DNA of 62,903 nucleotides, the filler included, from Stramenopiles sp. TOSAG23-3 (taxonomy: Eukaryota), in the NCBI GenBank assembly GCA_900128585.1. It is 9 parts of 9 records of this genome, joined end to end, with 100 filler letters (N's around TTAATTAATTAA, not from the genome) between each part and the next. Parts side by side here need not be neighbours in the genome. Positions count along the whole stretch, not along the records: positions 25,674 to 34,112 come from LT643019.1; 8 more parts are not named here. One strand, given 5' to 3'. A program made the position numbers and the translations under genes. The notes under the pieces are model-generated. The model did not search any database. It worked only from the letters and a program-made list of their open reading frames with translations, and was not told the DNA's origin. The stretch's first letter is position 1, and each line of letters begins with the position of its first letter. Of this stretch, positions 1,599-59,317 are shown in pieces.

Positions 1599-2600
1599 GT
1601 CCGCAAGCTAAAGAAGTAAAAATTCAATTATAGAAAATGGACTCTGAAAACTCAAGAGGTGAAAGAACTAATTGTTTGCTTCTAATGAATACCGCAAAGG
1701 TCCCCGAACGATCAATGTGAAACAGTAACAATAAATGAGTGCAGAGGAAAGTATTCTTCCTCACGATGAAATTGTTGCCATTACCCCCCCCCCCCTAGAG
1801 ACTTTAGGGGAAGAAGTTATAATAATAGCGGTGGCCCCCCCCCCCCCCCCCTGCAATAAAAATATCATCATGTTATATAGAATAGCAGGAAGAACTATGC
1901 CACAACAACAACAAACAACCCAAAAAAAAAATAGCAAAAAAAAATATTATCGTAGAATGAAAAATGGCGCAAGTTGGACGACAACGTAATATTAAGGTTT
2001 GAAACAGAATTAATTTTTACAAAGTAAATATTTAATATTATTATTAAATTATATTAAAATGAAAAATATATACACACAAATATAAATACCTTAAATAAAT
2101 ATTCTTGCAATTCGTTTCACGTTTACAAACGGTCAACTATTATTATCCTATACGAATTACAGGACAGCACTTTGCATTGGGCAGTGTACTACGAGTATGT
2201 AATATTGCCGATGCCAATGCTATAGCCTGTAGTTTTAATAATGACAAAGAAGAATTATGAACTTGCTTCAAAAGCTCTTTTTTTGAGAAGAAGAAGAAGA
2301 CCGTTTTTATTTATTCTATTCCCCAATAAAATAATAATATTAATTAATAATACGAGGATGATACGACGACTATTATCATCATATCGCTCACCCATCATCT
2401 CCTCCTCTCCATGCAACAAGTGAGCTCGGTTGTTATTTTATCATTATTCGTCCTGGGTTAAAATATACAGTTTACACATTAATAAAGAATAGCCCCTCAG
2501 CGACACAAATTTAAGAAATGTGTATGGACCTTCCTTAACATTTCATTTAGATATAGTACTATGGTCGCTTATTTGTAACGCAACAAACAATCCTGTTGAA

Positions 2601-25790: not shown

Positions 25791-26967
25791 ATGTTTGACG
25801 ATTTGTGCCACGGCGGGGTAGGCAAGTATGCCTTTCCGGTGATGATGATGGGATCGTTGGCGCTTCACGTGTGGGACGTGGCGTCCGACATACTGGTGGC
25901 GATCCTCCTCTACCACGAAGACAAAGTATTCTTCGGCATATCGATAGGAGTGATGGTGTTGGGGAGTCTGTTTGGTAGTTTTGCGAGTGTGATCTTTGGG
26001 AGTTTGAAATCTAGAATGGAAGGTGGAAATGGCGGAAGCGAAAACGAAAATACTCCAGCCATTGACGCTTCCACCGTTGCCGGTTGCCTGTGCGGTCTGA
26101 CCCAGCTGGAAATCTTCGTCGATGCTTACTTCTCCATTCGGTTGGGGAAGAAAACGCAAGGCTTCGTTTTCACGCGCCTCTTTGAAGGAATGGTGGAAAG
26201 CGCCCCGCAATCCTTGCTCCAACTCTACATCGTCTTGAAACGTGCGGACGGCGTGATCGACGGGGAAGACGTCCTCCTCTTTGCGAGCATCGGCACGTCG
26301 GTGGTGTCGATGGCGGTCGGGGTAAGTCAGTTCGAACGGTGGAGTGTGAAAGGCGATAGGAAGTACGTTATCCCACTCTTTTCCCGATACAACGTTGCCC
26401 TGAACACCTACCATATGCTGGAGATTGCCGCACGAATGGGGCTGTTGGCGTGCGTCGGCATTGCGTGGAGCGGGTGGGCGATATTATAAGTGCGATGGGG
26501 CGTTTCTGGGAGCGCTCCTTGGTGTCGGTTGCCTTGCGTCCCAGTATTTTGGATTTTCGAGTGCTACTCCTGACATAATGCGAGACTACCTCAAATACCA
26601 CTGGCTTCCCAAAACTCTGGAAGGGTTCGTGATGATTCCGTTCATCGTCGTCAAACTGACCCAAGCGCACACCTACTCATTTATGCTCTTCAGCGTCATC
26701 GGGATGGCGTGCTTCGTGCTTCAATACGTCCCGCTGTTTTATCTGTTGAAATGGGCGAGCAATGCAACGAAAGATAGAGATGTCGATGATAAGTGCCCCC
26801 AACCAAGCGAGGTCTTCGTGTTCCCCTTCTGCTCCAAGAACTTGGACGATAGTGTAGGAGGAGTATTAAAATGGAAGGAATACGAAGCGCAGCAGAAAGA
26901 GAAAGAAGAGAAGAAGAAGAAAGAGGAAGAGAAAAAAATGACGAAAATAACCCCGGTCCAACCATAA
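25791..26967 (+). pseudogene. XK-related (XKR) membrane protein with a frame break at ~26487
   Basis: WDVASDILVAILLY and FEGMVESAPQSLLQLYI are XK motifs. TAA at 26487-26489; hydrophobic sequence continues in the +1 frame to 26967. Could be a pseudogene or an assembly error. Confidence 0.7.
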
Positions 26968-26982
26968 GTTAACTTCTAGATG

Positions 26983-26987
26983 AAAAA
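26983..26987 (-). terminator. Pol III-type T5 terminator
   Basis: TTTTT directly after the tRNA discriminator. It is the first run of 5 or more T on the minus strand downstream of 27615. Confidence 0.7.
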
Positions 26988-27059
26988 TTACACTGACTGG
27001 AGTCGAACCAGCTACCTCCGCGTTATGAATGCGGTGCTCTGCCGTTGAGCTACAATGTA
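26988..27059 (-). tRNA. tRNA with CAT anticodon (elongator Met-type fold)
   Basis: 72-nt cloverleaf: acceptor TACATTG/CAGTGTA, D arm GCTC-AACGGCA-GAGC, anticodon arm CCGCA-TTCATAA-CGCGG, T arm GCTGG-TTCGACT-CCAGT, discriminator A. No encoded CCA. Followed by T5. Confidence 0.92.
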
Positions 27060-27063
27060 TTGT

Positions 27064-27349
27064 GCACAAATGAGAAAGTGAACACTGTAAGATAGATGGA
27101 GAATAGGGTTACAGATTTGGACCTTATCTTTGTTAGTGGAGAGACTTTGTATGAAGAACCCTTTGGGTACTAGTCTTGTAGTTTACGATTCTACATCTCT
27201 TTTAGGCTTCACGCCCACGTCACCAACAATGATATTCCAACTACCGTATCGTTCAATACAACCTATATGATCGTACTCTACAACGCTACCTATCCCCCCG
27301 TTTGATTAGCTGGAGAGAAAAGGAACAGCATTCTTGGCTCATTCTGTGC
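27064..27349 (-). ncRNA. Putative ~286-nt structured RNA, family unassigned
   Basis: Nested long-range helices with several G-U pairs on the minus strand: 27349-27338/27074-27064, 27333-27325/27088-27080, 27294-27288/27097-27091, 27229-27221/27138-27130, plus local hairpins. Confidence 0.65.
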
Positions 27350-27434
27350 TGATGTGTCGAGGAGTCTAACCTCGATTCTAGACACGTTTCTAGTCGTCAA
27401 CGGACCACACCTTTACCACTTAGACCACATGGCA
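27347..27434 (-). ncRNA. tRNA-like element B
   Basis: A-box-like TGGTCTAAGTGG. Arm TGGTC-CGTTGAC-GACTA. T arm TCGAGG-TTAGACT-CCTCGA. Irregular acceptor stem. Confidence 0.6.
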
Positions 27435-27535
27435 TATATTATATATTCTTCTGTTTTTTTCCATATATATATATTAAATGTGTAAAAGAATCAAACTCTT
27501 ATGTCATCCATCAGGTCACATTCAGAGGTATCCCT

Positions 27536-27615
27536 CTGGGAAGAAAATAAAGGAGTCGAACCTTCCACCGAAGCACCGACAGATGCTAGGGTCAGCCATT
27601 GAAGTTTCCTTCCAG
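27536..27615 (-). ncRNA. tRNA-like element A
   Basis: Terminal stem GGAAGGAAA/TTTTCTTCC. T arm GAAGG-TTCGACT-CCTTT with perfect B-box GGTTCGACTCC. Central arm AGCAT-CTGTCG-GTGCT. Confidence 0.6.
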
Positions 27616-27631
27616 TAAATTAGAATTGTAC

Positions 27632-27638
27632 ATTTATA
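27632..27638 (-). promoter_or_regulatory. TATA box (TATAAAT) upstream of the ncRNA cassette
   Basis: Lies ~17-23 nt upstream of element A. A (TA)n tract at 27463-27474 lies ~30-40 nt upstream of element B. Confidence 0.45.
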
Positions 27639-27678
27639 CCCCAAAGTACTATTAATATCAGTTACTATTTTTAAAAGT

Positions 27679-27921
27679 ATGATCCGTAGTATACTTCATT
27701 TAAATAGGAGAACATTATTTTTAACTCAACCGTATTCCACTGTTAAACCGTACGAGGTGGCAGAATCGGAGGAGAGGGACTTACCATCACCAGATGAAGT
27801 AAACGAAGTAAAGCATCGAATCGATAATAAGAGCGAATACGACGATAATAATTACTTTGCGGAGCAGCTCGCCAGTGGCGAAAATTATTCCAATATAAAA
27901 CGTGACATAGGCAGAAAATAG
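27679..27921 (+). CDS. Small hypothetical protein (80 aa)
   Basis: ATG to TAG. R/L/S/T-rich acid-free N-terminus, then an acidic body. Divergent from the RNA cassette. Confidence 0.45.
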   Translation: MIRSILHLNRRTLFLTQPYSTVKPYEVAESEERDLPSPDEVNEVKHRIDNKSEYDDNNYFAEQLASGENYSNIKRDIGRK

Positions 27922-28115
27922 ATTGTGGAGGTATTAATAGCTACCATAATAGCAAAAAAAAAAAAAAGAAGAAGAAGATAAAAATGAATTGCATTTTTTG
28001 ATGCGGCGTGTTTTTTTTTTACAGAGTGCATGCAAATGTTTTATATCGGTGCATACTAGGAAAAAGAAAACACACACACACGCACACACAAACACTAACT
28101 TCATTCAGACAAACC

Positions 28116-29433: not shown

Positions 29434-29806
29434 CCTTCTTCGGGATGCCTGGTGGGAAAGGACCTATTTCTATAATTGACCTAATTGTCAATAGAATGGC
29501 AGGAGCCGTTCGGGAAGATATTCTAAGAGCTTAGTATAGACACAGGATACTTATTAATACTGTGTTTATGTATATCATAACTCTACACTTATATCAAAAT
29601 ATAGTATTGTATTAAGTACATAATCCTATCATTAATAATTGCATGAATGAGTGTGATCAGGAGAATGAACACAGGATGAATGACTATACTGTGTGTATAT
29701 ATAACCATAGCAACTCATCTGGAATGGTTCCTTCCATTCTATTGAGAATTAGGTTAATTATAGAAATAGGCCAATATGCCAGTTGCCAGGCATCTCGAAG
29801 GGAAGG
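29434..29806. repeat. Foldback element with ~80-nt imperfect inverted arms
   Basis: 29434-29510 is complementary to 29722-29806. Two internal ACACAG-N14-CTGTGT palindromes. Confidence 0.8.
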
Positions 29807-39600: not shown

Positions 39601-40178
39601 CCACTTTTGTACCGGTTTCAAAGAAGTACACCTGGTACAAAACGGATGTTGGAATTGATCATAATTCATTGCCGTCGCGGCGTCGTGACCACGCGGCAGC
39701 AGTGGCTGTGAAGGGCAACAAGGAAGTTGTGTTCGTTTATGGTGGTTGGGATGTGGCAAGAATTTTGGACGATTTGTGGTACTATACACCGTCCAGCAAC
39801 GTGGGAAAAACCGGCTCTTGGACGGTGGTCAAAGCAACGACGGGGCGATATTTAGCCTGTGTTCCAAACTTCTTTAGAGAATTTGTTGATTTTTTCGGTG
39901 AGACATGCAGAAGCATGGAAGTTTCGACAAATCCGGCTCGATCCGGGCACTCTTTAGTGGCGTTAACATCAGATTTTAATTCTGATATGAGTCAACGAAA
40001 TCAAACCATTCCCCATGAGAGCATATTTTCATACGGGGGATATAGTGAAAAGGGAGTCCCAGAAGGTTTGAATTGGGACCGGTATGGTTGGCCAGGCGGA
40101 GGCGTTGAGACGGACTTTTTTGCAATGTGCCATGACGACAGAACCAGTTTCTGCAACGAACCCATTTATTTGCGCTAG
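36684..40178 (+). CDS. Secreted Kelch-repeat protein with ricin-B-lectin-like insert
   Basis: Signal peptide. Kelch blades (PPARYGQT..IMFGG, MLVFGG..NDLWEY, GRYGHVA..LIVFGG..LDDVWEL, VYGG..LDDLWYY). Ricin-like LVSAASGLCITV...LEPC...QSF. Confidence 0.85.
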   Translation: MRGFSTFLVFVALISLANLPKYGSAEQTMKWAQVVTAMKRQYVKQTVYNATKNIAEFSPEDLTLVSIKPPARYGQTLVRIGQKYGGSSIFNRAIMFGGFKNGTCGEVWEYKVGMVNSNPGFKSADGTHTLFDAAGSFGDETYACSQTKLTNDYRHVCNTWKKHTPTIKKSNCVNNPGSRKLFSVKIAPFCLGLNSTSYFSGIDSGSFLLTQECTSAYKQRVYLEELNAAKCGITNETGGKCVKFRFKTKVTEWGVRTAGVCASGGGNQTVPSPILNVLDCNDTLVSQRFIVKKLGFGGNHLVSAASGLCITVKGQADPSVRGIITLQIHAIASLEPCSNSMYQSFEILALGMECTKDAVPYTSDQESLARLSHTSSLAANSLYPSGAHGAKMLVFGGANDKKGAKNDLWEYDIERKIWTEIFDGYDWAQTEDTHLHSKNIVYEHLKANVQATVSSQDRPRKDVHFEENPRPNPRMGHTATMVHHKSVSTVVKNIPIHVKRSFSNFSAPGSILQTKRVVYDIGTSIFKADSVTARGAIQATITEARKREATMWVGAIANGWDGFSYPFNYTYTVDGSNIMNWTITLVSNTTLRLRRPVVKKRTINSLYQNDNFSKADLQLDYEYYETHTYTCMNMTHTCRTKSEAVCATCGGAKFTVWNPSGEQYDVEEIKLQTVTASATTEGLTRMLIFGGWVRHGKQSYISSEVWAFDYAAQLSMSSQYDANVYDTLYHIFPCCGTIQECCGTSSDPTFDRCRLRRGVDVNVSACVGSLPTINLWQLVETHSAGNGKPLGRYGHVAVNVGGTSSLFPSRDRLIVFGGEGGHGLLDDVWELSLDASPTDIYELDFALQCNLKGGVLAFKLSQLLGGATNAKVSHLSSLLKFNDTIEDVVSALSIIHKNVQFGYTSAPKANGTMLCDSSKPQHSFKFTTSIAFLQSLDAANFNNIMDVVYYYQNGTVKQVDTNSSGRATIIPQTTFVPVSKKYTWYKTDVGIDHNSLPSRRRDHAAAVAVKGNKEVVFVYGGWDVARILDDLWYYTPSSNVGKTGSWTVVKATTGRYLACVPNFFREFVDFFGETCRSMEVSTNPARSGHSLVALTSDFNSDMSQRNQTIPHESIFSYGGYSEKGVPEGLNWDRYGWPGGGVETDFFAMCHDDRTSFCNEPIYLR

Positions 40179-42866: not shown

Positions 42867-43140
42867 AGTTAGGATTAGGGTATGAGGACGCTAAATTTAA
42901 TTACTTATACGAGGAAATAACAGCCAATTTTCTTGTTTTTAGTATCATATGTTTTAAGACTCTCATTTTAAATCAATTACTATTTTAGTTCCAACCCTAA
43001 TCCTACCTTGATGGTTTAACTTGATTTTTTGATTTTTTAATTTTCGTTTCTTCGTTGATGATTGTCAATCTAAACAAGAAAATTGGCTGTTGTTATTTAT
43101 AAGTAATTAAATTTAGCTTCCTCATACCCTAATCCTAACT
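42867..43140. mobile_element. MITE-like 274-bp element with ~70-bp terminal inverted repeats
   Basis: Arms 42867-42938 and 43072-43140: outer 43 nt have one mismatch, inner 20 nt are perfect. No clear target-site duplication. Confidence 0.6.
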
Positions 43141-58207: not shown

Positions 58208-59317
58208 ATGATCAGAATCCACAACTGTGCCTTGATTAGCATTCTCGTGCTGGTATCTTTGCATACGTTGATTGCATCGCCTCCTCCACTAAACCGTACA
58301 ATTGCAACCATTTCAGAGCACAGAGATGACTACGTCATCCCCCGGCGCTATGTGCTTATACCAGGGCATACAAAGCCAACAAAGGCGCCCCTCTCGTTCC
58401 GTTATCCCGATCGCAGAATCAACGGCTAGAAAAGTACAGTTTAGCGCTGGACGGTGCAATCCAGACCGACGCCTCATATATTGAGAGAAGAGACGCACGC
58501 AATTTTACCATTCGTCAATTCCAAAAAGAGTACGCATCAATCGGGAAACCAGTAATTATTACCAACATTGAAGACGCAGACAAATCTTTTAGGGAACTGA
58601 AAAAGGTCTGGACACTGGATAGCTTGGAGAGTAGGTATGGGCATGTAAAAGTGGATATATCGACAAGCGCTGACATCGTCGCAATCCAACGGCTTCTTTC
58701 TTTGCAAGAGTGTCCCGATCACTCGGCAAACTCAATAAGAATGAACGTATCAACCTACATCAAACAGATTCGGAACAAAAAATGGTTAAAAAACAATCCA
58801 CCATATTTGTTGAGGACTCTTTCAGGCGATATGTTAGAGTCTTTATCCTTTCCATCAAGGCGATATGTTAGAGTCTTTATCCTTTCCATCATATTTCCAA
58901 GGGGATCAATGGAGTTTCCCTGAAAACATTAGAAAAACGAAAGCTCTTTTCTCTTTGGGCCCAGCAAATAGCTTCACAGGATTCCATTTGCACTCTGCCG
59001 CGTTCAACTACGTCGCCCATGGTGCCAAAAAGTGGATCATTTACCCACCACGGGCTAGCCCCGACATTGATTTTCACCACGATGGAGACACGCTCTCGCA
59101 CTTTTTCAAGACGAAGCAAAGGCAGCCGAGCAAAAATAACGAAAAGCCATTAGAAGCGATACAGACAGAAGGCGAAATTATGTTTATTCCAAGTAGCTGG
59201 CTTCATGCAGTGGTCAATATCGGCCAAGATCCTACCGTCGCCGTTGCGGTGGAGCTGGGATGGGATACATTTTACGAGAAGAATTTCAATAAAATACCTT
59301 GTCGTATGCCTTGTTGA
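58208..59317 (+). pseudogene. JmjC (JMJD8-like) protein with signal peptide, broken by two frameshifts
   Basis: IERRDA..F..EY...KPVIIT, GFHLHSAAFN..HGAKKWIIYPP, QTEGEIMFIPSSWLHAVVN. Breaks lie near the C5 run at ~58338 and at the 34-bp duplication 58824-58891. Confidence 0.8.

What the first reader, a model, noticed from the sequence alone, without database searches (positions are those of the whole stretch)
27064..27349. Unassigned ~286-nt rod-and-branch RNA
Seen, minus-strand nested pairings from the outside in: GCACAGAATGAG/CTCATTTGTGC (one bulge), GAATGCTGT/ACAGTGTTC, side hairpin TCTCC/GGGGG, GATAGGT/ATCTATC, ATAGGT/ATCTGT, side hairpin TTGTATT-GAAC-GATACGG, TTGGA/TCCAA, TATC/GATA, TTGTTGGTG/CACTAACAA. 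The apical domain has TGGGC-GTGAA-GCCTA, TGTAG/CTACA, and AGACT/AGTCT enclosing ACCC-AAA-GGGT. GTGAAG could pair with CTTCAT as a pseudoknot. The many G-U pairs favour an RNA on this strand over a DNA palindrome. The size and rod shape recall SRP RNA, but I see no helix-8 motif and no RNase P/MRP P4 consensus.
Basis: partly seen in the sequence, partly recalled or inferred. Interest (0 to 1): 0.8.

Follow-up and report, generated by a model that had tools for sequence, protein, structure and literature searches.

The report
Unassigned structured RNA flanked by tRNAs
A conserved, transcribed, folded RNA of about 290-340 bases and no known family lies between a decayed tRNA-like element and a methionine tRNA gene in an uncultured marine protist; these neighbours probably supply its promoter and cut its ends.

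Summary
The fold is strand-specific: minus strand z -3.37, plus strand z -0.23. The stretch ranks 8th of 1684 windows for excess stability, and 4 of the 7 above it are DNA inverted repeats.

It is a real gene. A metatranscriptome contig from a ~95% relative covers exactly 27064-27401 and nothing beside it. A metagenome relative has 1 change in 395 nt of promoter, leader and RNA, against 22 events in 595 nt of flanks.

No Rfam family matches at E<=10. The recalled hallmark motifs of SRP, RNase P/MRP, U3, C/D and H/ACA RNAs are absent.

The minus strand reads: TATA-like run, degenerate tRNA-like leader with a B-box, the RNA, ACAA, tRNA-Met(CAU), T5.

Best reading: a tRNA-linked, Pol III-type ncRNA gene whose 3' end is made by RNase P cutting at tRNA-Met. 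Its function is unknown.

Covariation could not be tested because only two close relatives were found. The middle of the fold is ambiguous. Interest is moderate.

The parts
27064..27349 (-). Core of the structured RNA: closing helices 1-12/276-286 and 17-25/262-270, a side hairpin at p66-102, a long arm with helices p116-129/212-225, and three apical hairpins (p = 27350 - coordinate).
   Evidence: MFE -82.6, z -3.37. Pair probabilities. Covered by an RNA-library contig. 1 change in 286 nt in relative L001.
27350..27401 (-). 5' extension that is contiguous with the core in the RNA contig. It holds two hairpins, CUAGA/UCUAG and UCGAGG/CCUCGA. The second has a T-arm shape and carries the B-box-like GGTTAGACTCC.
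   Evidence: Contig of run X16 spans 27064-27401. Fold. B-box match with 1 mismatch at 27361-27371.
27348..27434 (-). Degenerate tRNA-like element (pseudo tRNA-Gln(UUG) shape, long variable arm, 3 mismatches in the acceptor stem). Its 3' half is the 5' extension listed above.
   Evidence: ARAGORN at a lowered threshold. Rfam tRNA model gives 15 bits, E 6.1, below gathering. Not called at default settings.
27434..27445 (-). TATA-like run TATATAATATAT, 33-44 nt upstream of the start of the RNA contig.
   Evidence: Read from the sequence. Unchanged in L001. Its function is inferred.
27461..27476 (-). Second AT-rich, TATA-like run (TTAATATATATATATGG), about 30-40 nt upstream of the 5' end of the tRNA-like element.
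   Evidence: Read from the sequence. L001 has a 4-nt deletion and 2 changes at its end. Its function is inferred.
27060..27063 (-). 4-nt spacer ACAA between the last paired base of the RNA and the first base of tRNA-Met.
26988..27059 (-). tRNA-Met (anticodon CAU). Its T-loop is GGTTCGACTCC, which reads as elongator-type.
   Evidence: Rfam 59.3 bits. ARAGORN. Exact B-box match at 26999-27009. The elongator reading rests on recalled initiator features.
26983..26987 (-). T5 run directly after the 3' end of the tRNA: a Pol III-type terminator.
   Evidence: Read from the sequence. Its function is inferred.
27537..27611 (-). Second tRNA-like element upstream: 9-bp acceptor-like stem, a T-arm with an exact B-box, and a 6-nt 'anticodon' loop.
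   Evidence: ARAGORN at a lowered threshold. tRNA-Sec model gives 19.4 bits, E 0.55, below gathering. B-box at 27552-27562.
27631..27706 (-). Possible C/D-type snoRNA (snoR21-like), sub-threshold. It may belong to the same ncRNA cluster.
   Evidence: Rfam RF00352 gives 28.6 bits against a gathering score of 45, E 0.13. Not followed further.

Best explanation
This is a real, single-copy non-coding RNA gene in the nuclear genome of an uncultured marine protist. It makes a stable, highly folded RNA of at least 286 nt, probably about 340 nt (27401-27064, minus strand). The RNA belongs to no described RNA family.

The gene is built like a tRNA-linked (Pol III-type) composite gene. A TATA-like run and a decayed tRNA-like leader that keeps a B-box provide the promoter. 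The RNA follows. Four bases later comes a genuine tRNA-Met, and transcription stops at the T5 run after the tRNA.

RNase P cutting at the 5' end of tRNA-Met would release the 3' end of the RNA. A few bases of trimming would stop at the 12-bp closing helix that pairs the 3' end with p1-12. The 3' half of the tRNA-like leader appears to stay on the RNA as two 5' hairpins.

The RNA most likely acts as the scaffold of a ribonucleoprotein. Its 5' half and closing helices are under strong constraint, and its apex and 3' arm are free to vary.

Shown: the fold and its strand bias, presence in RNA libraries, conservation, the neighbouring elements, and the absence of a known family.

Inferred: the polymerase, co-transcription with tRNA-Met, the cleavage steps and the function.
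For: Fold. z = -3.37 on the minus strand against -0.23 on the plus strand. Rank 8 of 1684 windows.

Transcription. In RNA run X16 the only contig laid on the 1401-nt stretch is 338 nt long and covers 27064-27401 with its whole length. It carries 16 substitutions and 2 indels, so it comes from a relative. No flank is covered, which argues against DNA carry-over. Its end at 27064 is the last paired base of the fold.

Conservation in L001. Metagenome contig L001 is 96% identical over 26823-27934. It has 1 change in 27458-27064 (395 nt) against 22 events in 595 nt of flanks, Fisher p = 1.4e-4. For the 286-nt RNA alone against the upstream flank, p = 0.04.

Conservation in X16. 14 of the 16 listed differences fall in p140-254, which is 115 of 338 nt (binomial p = 1.6e-5, or 1.9e-4 if the 2 unlisted ones lie outside). 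The 5' half, the leader and the closing helices are therefore constrained.

Fold of the relative. With its listed changes applied, the relative's version folds better: -90.6 kcal/mol, z -4.3. It keeps the outer helices, the side hairpin, the long arm and the apical hairpins.

Context. tRNA-Met lies at 26988-27059 with T5 right behind it. All 3 of the 3 B-box matches in the 62.9-kb window lie within 26999-27562 on the minus strand. The tRNA-like elements are found by ARAGORN at a lowered threshold.

Copy number. No second copy is found in the window. The metagenome scan gave 1 true locus out of 3 hits.

Precedents. Leader-tRNA composite Pol III genes are known: tRNA-5S rRNA, tRNA-RUF70, tRNA-snoRNA, tRNA-tRNA, and the 84-nt tRNA-like promoter leader of yeast RPR1 (PMC2566860, abstract and passages).
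Against: - Contigs cannot prove RNA ends, strand or co-transcription. Only one RNA study gives the 27064-27401 contig.
- The other RNA-library contig (X18, 26941-27143, with a 22-letter gap) may be the 3' UTR of the convergent plus-strand XK-related gene, which ends at 26967, or it may be DNA.
- A T4 run lies inside the RNA (p29-32) and could stop Pol III in some organisms.
- No A-box match with 1 mismatch or fewer lies in the locus: 0 of the 14 matches in the window. TGGTCTAAGTGG fits the recalled consensus only with one extra base.
- The tRNA-like leader has 3 mismatches in its acceptor stem, so RNase P or RNase Z may not recognise it.
- The contig start at 27401 lies inside the leader, so the TATA-like run may drive a start that skips its 5' half.
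- No compensatory double changes were seen. Against the MFE, the relative's 14 listed substitutions give 8 unpaired, 2 pair-keeping and 4 pair-breaking.
- Function is not addressed by any data.
Confidence: 0.6

Rival explanations
1. It is a very divergent member of a known housekeeping family (RNase P or MRP RNA, SRP RNA, telomerase RNA, U3, 7SK) that the Rfam models and simple motif checks fail to recognise.
For: - The size (286-340 nt), single copy, Pol III-like setting and paired ends fit.
- The order closing helix, second helix, pyrimidine/G hairpin resembles P1-P2-P3.
- The layout tRNA-like leader, RNA, tRNA recalls yeast RPR1 with its tRNA-like leader (PMC2566860 passages). It also recalls the yeast mitochondrial tRNA-RPM1-tRNA order, which I recall and did not check.
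- For telomerase RNA: UAACCCUA at p239-246 could template TTAGGG repeats.
- Two 5' hairpins plus a rod resemble the SRP Alu domain plus helix 5.
Against: - There are 0 Rfam hits on 27064-27349 at E<=10 in two searches.
- The only CR-I-like match (GGAAUAUC, p112) and the only CR-V-like match (p103-117) overlap each other, so they cannot form P4.
- There is no GARAR pentaloop. The loop is GUGAA, and GUAAA in the relative.
- AGCA occurs once, at the leader junction, and not next to a GNRA loop. There is no UGUAAU, no C box and no D box. The motifs are recalled, except GARAR and the 6-nt CR-IV, which come from PMC13184271 passages.
- The template-like 8-mer occurs 8 times in the window, so the chance of one in 286 nt is about 2%.
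- That 8-mer lies 40 nt from the 3' end, whereas the pseudoknot should follow the template (PMC8287931 passages). It is half paired in a near-optimal alternative fold.
- If the organism is a stramenopile, protein-only RNase P is expected (PMC10941002 passage). The lineage is unresolved.
Confidence: 0.2
2. It is only a long structured spacer or leader of a tandem (pseudo-tRNA)-tRNA-Met gene. It would be released as a by-product of tRNA processing and have no function of its own.
For: - It sits between a tRNA-like element and a tRNA, only 4 nt from the latter.
- Tandem tRNA genes transcribed from the leader tRNA's promoter are known (PMC2566860 passages).
- No function or partner is shown.
Against: - It has 1 change in 395 nt against 22 in 595 nt of flanks in L001.
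- The divergence in X16 is strongly uneven, which indicates selection on the RNA itself.
- It is stable enough to be assembled from a metatranscriptome, while the tRNA part is not in that contig.
- Its fold is well above the background of the window.
Confidence: 0.12
3. It is not an RNA gene on the minus strand. The signal would come from the 3' UTR of the convergent plus-strand XK-related gene, from a mobile element (SINE or MITE), or from chance.
For: - The plus-strand ORF ends at 26967, about 100 nt away.
- Contigs carry no strand information.
- Other strongly folding windows here are inverted repeats.
Against: - The plus strand folds no better than shuffles (z -0.23).
- The X16 contig does not include 26968-27063, which a 3' UTR would have to cross.
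- There is no second copy in the window.
- Only one true locus was found in the metagenome scan, and it has the same flanks.
- The structure depends on G-U pairs (13 of 92), unlike the DNA palindromes at 29466 and 42885, which score on both strands.
Confidence: 0.05

Closest known systems
[quoted passage not shown]
   Same: An ncRNA lies directly beside tRNA-type modules on one strand, a B-box is present in the leader, and a T-run follows only after the last cistron. The tRNA-processing enzymes would set the ends. RUF70 is likewise an RNA of unknown function that depends on its leader tRNA.
   Different: Here the leader is a decayed tRNA-like element and not a working tRNA. Part of it seems to stay on the RNA. 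The ncRNA is in the middle with a genuine tRNA behind it. The RNA is four times longer than RUF70 and single copy. Co-transcription is not shown.
Yeast RPR1 (nuclear RNase P RNA) gene with its 84-nt tRNA-like promoter leader (PMC2566860 passages; further details recalled)
   Same: A stable structured RNA of about 300 nt whose A/B-box-type promoter lies in an upstream tRNA-like leader that is not a real tRNA.
   Different: The RNA here lacks the CR-I/CR-V P4 core and gives no Rfam RNaseP_nuc hit. RPR1 has no tRNA behind it.
MALAT1/mascRNA-type 3' end formation
   Same: The 3' end of an upstream stable RNA would be made by RNase P cutting at the 5' end of a downstream tRNA-shaped module and then protected by structure. 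Here the protecting structure is the 12-bp terminal helix.
   Different: MALAT1 is a long Pol II transcript, its module is a tRNA-like mascRNA, and its end is protected by a triple helix. Here the module is a genuine tRNA-Met and the RNA is small.
SRP (7SL) RNA
   Same: Similar size, a long rod with paired ends, a branched apex, and two small hairpins at the 5' end when the 338-nt form is folded.
   Different: There is no helix-8 GNRA/AGCA motif and no UGUAAU (motifs recalled). There is no hit to any Rfam SRP model. The apex has three hairpins instead of two.
H. volcanii 5S rRNA 5' processing by tRNase Z at an upstream tRNA-like structure (PMC2566860 passage)
   Same: A tRNA-like fold directly upstream of a stable RNA could direct its 5' cleavage.
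   Different: That case is an archaeal rRNA operon. Here the RNA contig runs through the predicted RNase Z site (27349/27350), so cleavage there is at best partial.

Membership tests
SRP (7SL) RNA | Helix 8 with a GNRA tetraloop followed by the conserved AGCA-containing loop (SRP54 site) | tested here: not met
   Regex over 27434-27060. AGCA occurs once, at the leader/RNA junction, and no GNRA lies 2-5 nt before it. The motif is recalled from memory.
SRP (7SL) RNA | Match to a curated covariance model (Rfam SRP clan) | tested here: not met
   No SRP hit at E<=10 on 26850-27750 or on 27055-27440. One search returned nothing at all, not even the 15-bit tRNA-like match, so its filters were not simply laxer.
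RNase P / RNase MRP RNA | CR-I (GNAANNUC...) and CR-V (ACNNNANNNNGNNUA) on separate strands, forming helix P4 with a bulged U | tested here: not met
   There is one CR-I-like match (p112-119) and one CR-V-like match (p103-117). They overlap, so no P4 is possible. Threading p112-123 against p241-255 by hand pairs only 4 of 8 positions (and the sequence). The consensus is recalled.
RNase MRP RNA | P8 pentaloop GARAR, 3-bp P5 next to CR-I, six-nucleotide CR-IV (PMC13184271 passages) | tested here: not met
   There are 0 GARAR matches. The only pentaloop hairpin reads GUGAA, and GUAAA in the relative. P5 and CR-IV cannot be placed without CR-I.
RNase P / RNase MRP RNA | Ends paired (P1), then P2, then a P3 hairpin | tested here: inconclusive
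   The fold begins with 1-12/276-286, 17-25/262-270 and a hairpin at p27-61. This layout is not specific, and the hairpin competes with a long-range helix at 52-61/243-252.
Telomerase RNA | Template of one telomere repeat plus at least 1 nt | tested here: inconclusive
   UAACCCUA (p239-246) fits TTAGGG. Such 8-mers occur 8 times in the window, so chance is about 2% per 286 nt. The telomere repeat of the organism is unknown, and the window holds no telomeric array.
Telomerase RNA | Template boundary helix 5' of the template and a pseudoknot 3' of it (PMC8287931 passages) | tested here: not met
   Only 40 nt follow the 8-mer, and they form the closing helices. No Rfam telomerase model hits.
Box C/D, U3 and H/ACA snoRNAs | C box RUGAUGA and D box CUGA; or hairpin-H box-hairpin with ACA 3 nt from the 3' end | tested here: not met
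   There are 0 C boxes and 0 D boxes. The ACA at 27063-27061 is 1 nt, not 3, from the tRNA 5' end. The RNA is one closed rod and not two hairpins. The box sequences are recalled.
tRNA-linked composite Pol III gene | A tRNA or tRNA-like module directly adjacent on the same strand | tested here: met
   tRNA-Met lies 4 nt downstream. The tRNA-like element 27434-27348 abuts the RNA (sub-threshold in Rfam).
tRNA-linked composite Pol III gene | Internal promoter boxes in the leader | tested here: inconclusive
   The B-box is met: GGTTAGACTCC has 1 mismatch, and all 3 of 3 window matches lie in this 564-nt cluster. The A-box is not met at 1 mismatch or fewer: 0 of 14 window matches lie in the locus. 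The consensus sequences are recalled.
tRNA-linked composite Pol III gene | Co-transcription of the cistrons, with a T-run terminator after the last one | not testable with these tools
   T5 at 26987-26983 follows the tRNA, but a T4 lies inside the RNA. Only contigs were available, and these cannot show a single transcript.

The most novel reading that the evidence does not exclude
The RNA founds a new family of stable, structured Pol III-type RNAs in an uncultured marine protist lineage. Under this reading it is not a diverged P/MRP, SRP or telomerase RNA. It would carry the 3' half of a former tRNA as its own 5' domain and promoter. Its 3' end would be made MALAT1-style by RNase P at a genuine downstream tRNA-Met. 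It may switch between a local pyrimidine/G hairpin (p32-38/51-57) and a long-range 10-bp helix (p52-61/243-252). The two folds differ by only 2.4 kcal/mol, and the relative's changes (G51>A, U250>C, U237>C) favour the long-range form.
Probability: 0.3. Interest if true: 0.6.

Novelty: new variant of a known kind. Interest (0 to 1): 0.5.

Why it matters
Small structured RNAs of uncultured marine protists are almost unexplored. This one is expressed, conserved and matches none of the 4227 Rfam families.

Its gene layout would extend the short list of composite Pol III genes. It would be a case in which a decayed tRNA has become the promoter and 5' domain of another RNA, while a working tRNA defines its 3' end.

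If the RNA proves to be the missing telomerase, RNase P-type or SRP-type RNA of this lineage, it would show how far such RNAs can drift. If it is none of these, it is a new ribonucleoprotein RNA to characterise.

Tried and rejected
- Whole-genome search: no genome is held for this window. Paralogs and the canonical SRP, P, MRP and telomerase RNA genes could therefore not be sought.
- Phage collection blastn of 26950-27750: no match.
- Viral-contig scans with an 18-mer and a 23-mer of the RNA: 0 hits each.
- Metagenome scan with the 18-mer: 3 loci. Only L001 is a true relative. L002 and L003 share just the 18-20 nt.
- Covariation from the one diverged relative (X16, 14 listed of 16 substitutions). 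Counts are unpaired/keep/break:
  - MFE: 8/2/4.
  - Alternative with helix 52-61/243-252: 8/4/2. Here 241 of 5000 random placements give as few breaks.
  That model was suggested by the relative's own fold, and four models were tried, so this is not evidence.
The nested-fold probabilities cannot judge a pseudoknot.
- DNA runs X2 and X4 gave no cover of 27070-27351, and their tRNA-Met hits run on into unlike sequence. No conclusion is drawn.
- X18 RNA-library contig 26941-27143, with 22 letters missing inside 26976-27022: its meaning is unclear. It may be the antisense 3' UTR or DNA.
- Intermolecular pairing of the RNA with tRNA-Met, the two tRNA-like elements and the snoR21-like stretch: no better than shuffles (z +0.5 to +0.8).
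- Bacterial promoter/terminator scan: irrelevant consensus, nothing useful.
- Short ORF: by eye, the longest from an AUG in the RNA is 18 codons.
- 7SK: by eye, only one GAUC (p78-81) where two paired GAUC motifs are needed (recalled feature).
- Lineage: the nearest named relatives of one conserved protein are only about 50-56% identical and scattered over animals, fungi and stramenopiles. The domain content (XK-related, TSP1, SPARC-type, PCIF1, GPR180) does not settle it.
- Literature: searches for tRNA-like/polycistronic/snoRNA arrangements, Pol III telomerase RNAs in stramenopiles and RNase P RNA in stramenopiles listed no paper whose title or abstract start describes this layout. I did not read their supplements, which are closed and may list more RNAs.
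Full report
**What is there.** On the minus strand, 27349-27064 reads as a 286-nt RNA. Its two ends pair (p1-12 with p276-286, where p = 27350 - coordinate).

The minus strand folds at -82.6 kcal/mol, z = -3.37 against 200 dinucleotide shuffles, and 1 shuffle is as good. The plus strand folds at -64.2, z = -0.23, and 86 shuffles are as good.

I scanned 1684 windows of 286 nt across the whole 62.9-kb window and corrected the MFE for composition. The minus-strand target ranks 8th and the plus strand 435th. Four of the seven higher-ranked windows (29466 and 42885, both strands) are DNA inverted repeats with arms of 63 and 43 nt. The target depends on 13 G-U pairs among its 92 pairs.

**How firm is the fold.** Pair probabilities are high (mostly 0.8-1.0) for the two closing helices, the UCUCC/GGGGG hairpin, the long arm (p116-119/222-225 and p121-129/212-220) and two apical hairpins. 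They are moderate for UGUAG/CUACA.

The alternatives lie close in energy:
- -82.6 unconstrained.
- -80.2 with a 10-bp long-range helix p52-61/243-252 in place of the local hairpin.

The ends and the apex are solid. The middle is undecided.

The window is eukaryotic nuclear DNA. It holds long intron-poor ORFs with PCIF1_WW, TSP1, PUB, Kelch, PP1, RabGAP, ADA2, Rad21 and XK-related domains. Sequencing runs that hold it are marine. The nearest named protein relatives are only about 50-56% identical and taxonomically scattered, so the lineage is unresolved.

On the minus strand the locus reads as follows:
- A sub-threshold snoR21-like stretch at 27706-27631 (28.6 bits against a gathering score of 45).
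- A tRNA-like element at 27611-27537.
- AT-rich, TATA-like runs at 27476-27461 and 27445-27434.
- A second, degenerate tRNA-like element at 27434-27348. It has a pseudo tRNA-Gln shape, a long variable arm and 3 acceptor mismatches.
- The RNA at 27349-27064.
- The spacer ACAA.
- tRNA-Met(CAU) at 27059-26988 (59.3 bits).
- T5 at 26987-26983.

The recalled B-box consensus GGTTCGANTCC has only 3 matches (1 mismatch or fewer) in the whole window. All three lie on the minus strand within 26999-27562, one in each tRNA-type module. The total number is not above chance, but the clustering is. The recalled A-box consensus has no match with 1 mismatch or fewer in the locus.

**Transcription.** Four runs were laid on 26600-28000. 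The metatranscriptome run X16 gave a single contig of 338 nt. Over its whole length it matches 27064-27401, with 16 substitutions and 2 indels.

It is therefore the transcript, or at least RNA-library sequence, of a roughly 95% relative. It covers the RNA plus 52 nt of the leader and nothing of the flanks, which DNA carry-over would not explain. It stops at the last paired base of the fold. Contigs cannot prove ends or strand, so this is a hint and not a mapping.

It suggests that the stable RNA is about 340 nt and keeps the two 3' hairpins of the tRNA-like leader. The 338-nt fold has z -2.34.

A second RNA-library contig (X18, same sequence as the window) spans 26941-27143 with 22 letters missing inside 26976-27022. 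It may be the 3' UTR of the convergent XK-related gene, which ends at 26967, so I do not use it.

**Conservation.** One metagenome scan with an 18-mer found three loci. Only L001 is a relative, at 96% over 26823-27934. It has 1 change in 27458-27064 (TATA-like run, leader and RNA; 395 nt). The flanks have 12 events in 476 nt upstream and 10 in 119 nt beyond the tRNA trailer. Fisher p = 1.4e-4, or p = 0.04 for the RNA alone against the upstream flank.

In X16, 14 of the 16 listed differences lie in p140-254, which is 115 of 338 nt (p = 1.6e-5, or 1.9e-4 if the two unlisted substitutions lie elsewhere). The 5' half, the leader hairpins and the closing helices are therefore constrained, while the apex and the 3' arm vary at about 12%.

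With the listed changes applied, the relative's RNA folds at -90.6 kcal/mol (z -4.3). It has the same outer helices, side hairpin, long arm and apical hairpins, and the long-range helix 52-61/243-252 replaces the local hairpin.

**Covariation.** It could not be tested properly. Against the MFE, the 14 listed substitutions give 8 unpaired, 2 pair-keeping and 4 pair-breaking. Against the alternative with helix 52-61/243-252 they give 8, 4 and 2, and three of the four pair-keeping changes turn G-U into G-C. In that model 241 of 5000 random placements do as well. However, the model was suggested by the relative's own fold and four models were tried. No double compensatory change was seen.

**What it is not.** Rfam 15 gives only the tRNA at gathering thresholds. 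There is no hit on 27064-27349 at E<=10 in a 901-nt search. A 386-nt search gave no hit at all, and that search also failed to repeat the weak tRNA-like hit.

Motif checks (consensus recalled except where a paper is named):
- The only CR-I-like (p112-119) and CR-V-like (p103-117) matches overlap, so no P4 can form.
- There is no GARAR pentaloop, which together with a 3-bp P5 and a 6-nt CR-IV marks MRP RNA (PMC13184271 passages).
- AGCA occurs once and not beside a GNRA loop, and there is no UGUAAU. This excludes SRP.
- There are no C or D boxes.
- The terminal ACA is 1 nt, not 3, from the tRNA.

A telomere-template-like UAACCCUA sits at p239-246. Such 8-mers occur 8 times in the window. Only 40 nt follow it, whereas the pseudoknot should lie 3' of the template (PMC8287931 passages). 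It is half paired in the near-optimal alternative fold.

There is no extra copy in the window, no phage or viral match, and no special complementarity to its neighbours.

**Most likely mechanism.** The layout matches the known class of composite Pol III genes. In these, a leader tRNA, or a tRNA-like leader as in yeast RPR1, carries the promoter for a downstream RNA, and the tRNA-processing enzymes separate the products. Examples are tRNA-5S rRNA and tRNA-RUF70 in Yarrowia, tRNA-snoRNA in plants and tRNA-tRNA in S. pombe (PMC2566860 abstract and passages).

I infer the following steps:
- Transcription starts downstream of one of the TATA-like runs.
- The B-box in the leader hairpin recruits TFIIIC.
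- The polymerase reads through the RNA and tRNA-Met to the T5 run.
- RNase P cuts at 27059/27060, and trimming stops at the 12-bp terminal helix.

The fold, the RNA-library cover, the conservation and the neighbouring elements are shown. The polymerase, the co-transcription, the cuts and any function are inferred. The internal T4, the missing A-box match and the poor acceptor stem of the leader count against a simple version of this picture.

**Verdict.** This is a real, conserved, expressed, structured RNA of no described family, in an unusual tRNA-like/tRNA sandwich.

My confidences for the four readings:

| Reading | Confidence |
|---|---|
| tRNA-linked ncRNA gene | 0.6 |
| Unrecognised member of a known housekeeping family | 0.2 |
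| Functionless spacer | 0.12 |
| Antisense UTR, mobile element or chance | 0.05 |

I file it as a new variant of a known kind of gene organisation. The RNA family itself is still open. Interest is moderate (0.5). The decisive data are the organism's whole genome, strand-specific raw reads and distant homologs, none of which these tools could reach.

Noticed in passing
window 29463-29770 (+ and -): Long imperfect inverted repeat (63-nt arms, 83% complementary, 182 nt apart) in the AT-rich spacer between the DHDPS-like and PCIF1-like ORFs. As RNA it folds at -86.2 kcal/mol with z -6.1, the strongest fold in the window. It may be a MITE-like element or a hairpin-RNA locus.
   Followed up: partly
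window 42867-43140: Near-perfect inverted repeat (43-nt arms, 98%, plus inner 23-nt arms, 96%). Its arms begin AGTTAGGATTAGGGT, which is a telomere-repeat-like motif. It scores on both strands in the fold scan and looks like a small mobile element.
   Followed up: partly
window 27537-27611 (-): An upstream tRNA-like element with a 9-bp acceptor-like stem, a 4-5-bp T-arm carrying an exact B-box, and a 6-nt 'anticodon' loop. Its best Rfam match is the tRNA-Sec model at 19.4 bits (below gathering), and it has no UCA anticodon. It may punctuate the same ncRNA cluster.
   Followed up: partly
window 27631-27706 (-): Sub-threshold match to plant C/D snoRNA snoR21 (28.6 bits against a gathering score of 45). 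The C box is imperfect and the CUGA is not next to the terminal stem.
   Followed up: no
window 26976-27022: An RNA-library contig (run X18) is identical to the window over 26941-27143 but lacks 22 letters somewhere in this bin. The bin covers the T-arm and 3' end of tRNA-Met and the T5 run. This is unexplained.
   Followed up: no
window 26921-26941 and L001: The metagenome relative L001 lacks 21 nt of the low-complexity K/E-rich tail region of the convergent XK-related gene. It is an in-frame-length indel in a repeat.
   Followed up: no
window 2131-2416 (-), 39761-40046 (-), 58221-58506 (-): Three further windows fold better than the target after composition correction (residual z -3.9, -3.1 and -3.0), on one strand only. 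I did not examine them beyond a weak 14-nt inverted repeat at 2138/2326.
   Followed up: no
whole window: The window contains 704 N. Its domain repertoire (XK-related, SPARC-type EF-hand, TSP1 with laminin-G, GPR180/TMEM145, PCIF1) is of a kind best known from animals and their unicellular relatives, but the lineage could not be settled.
   Followed up: partly
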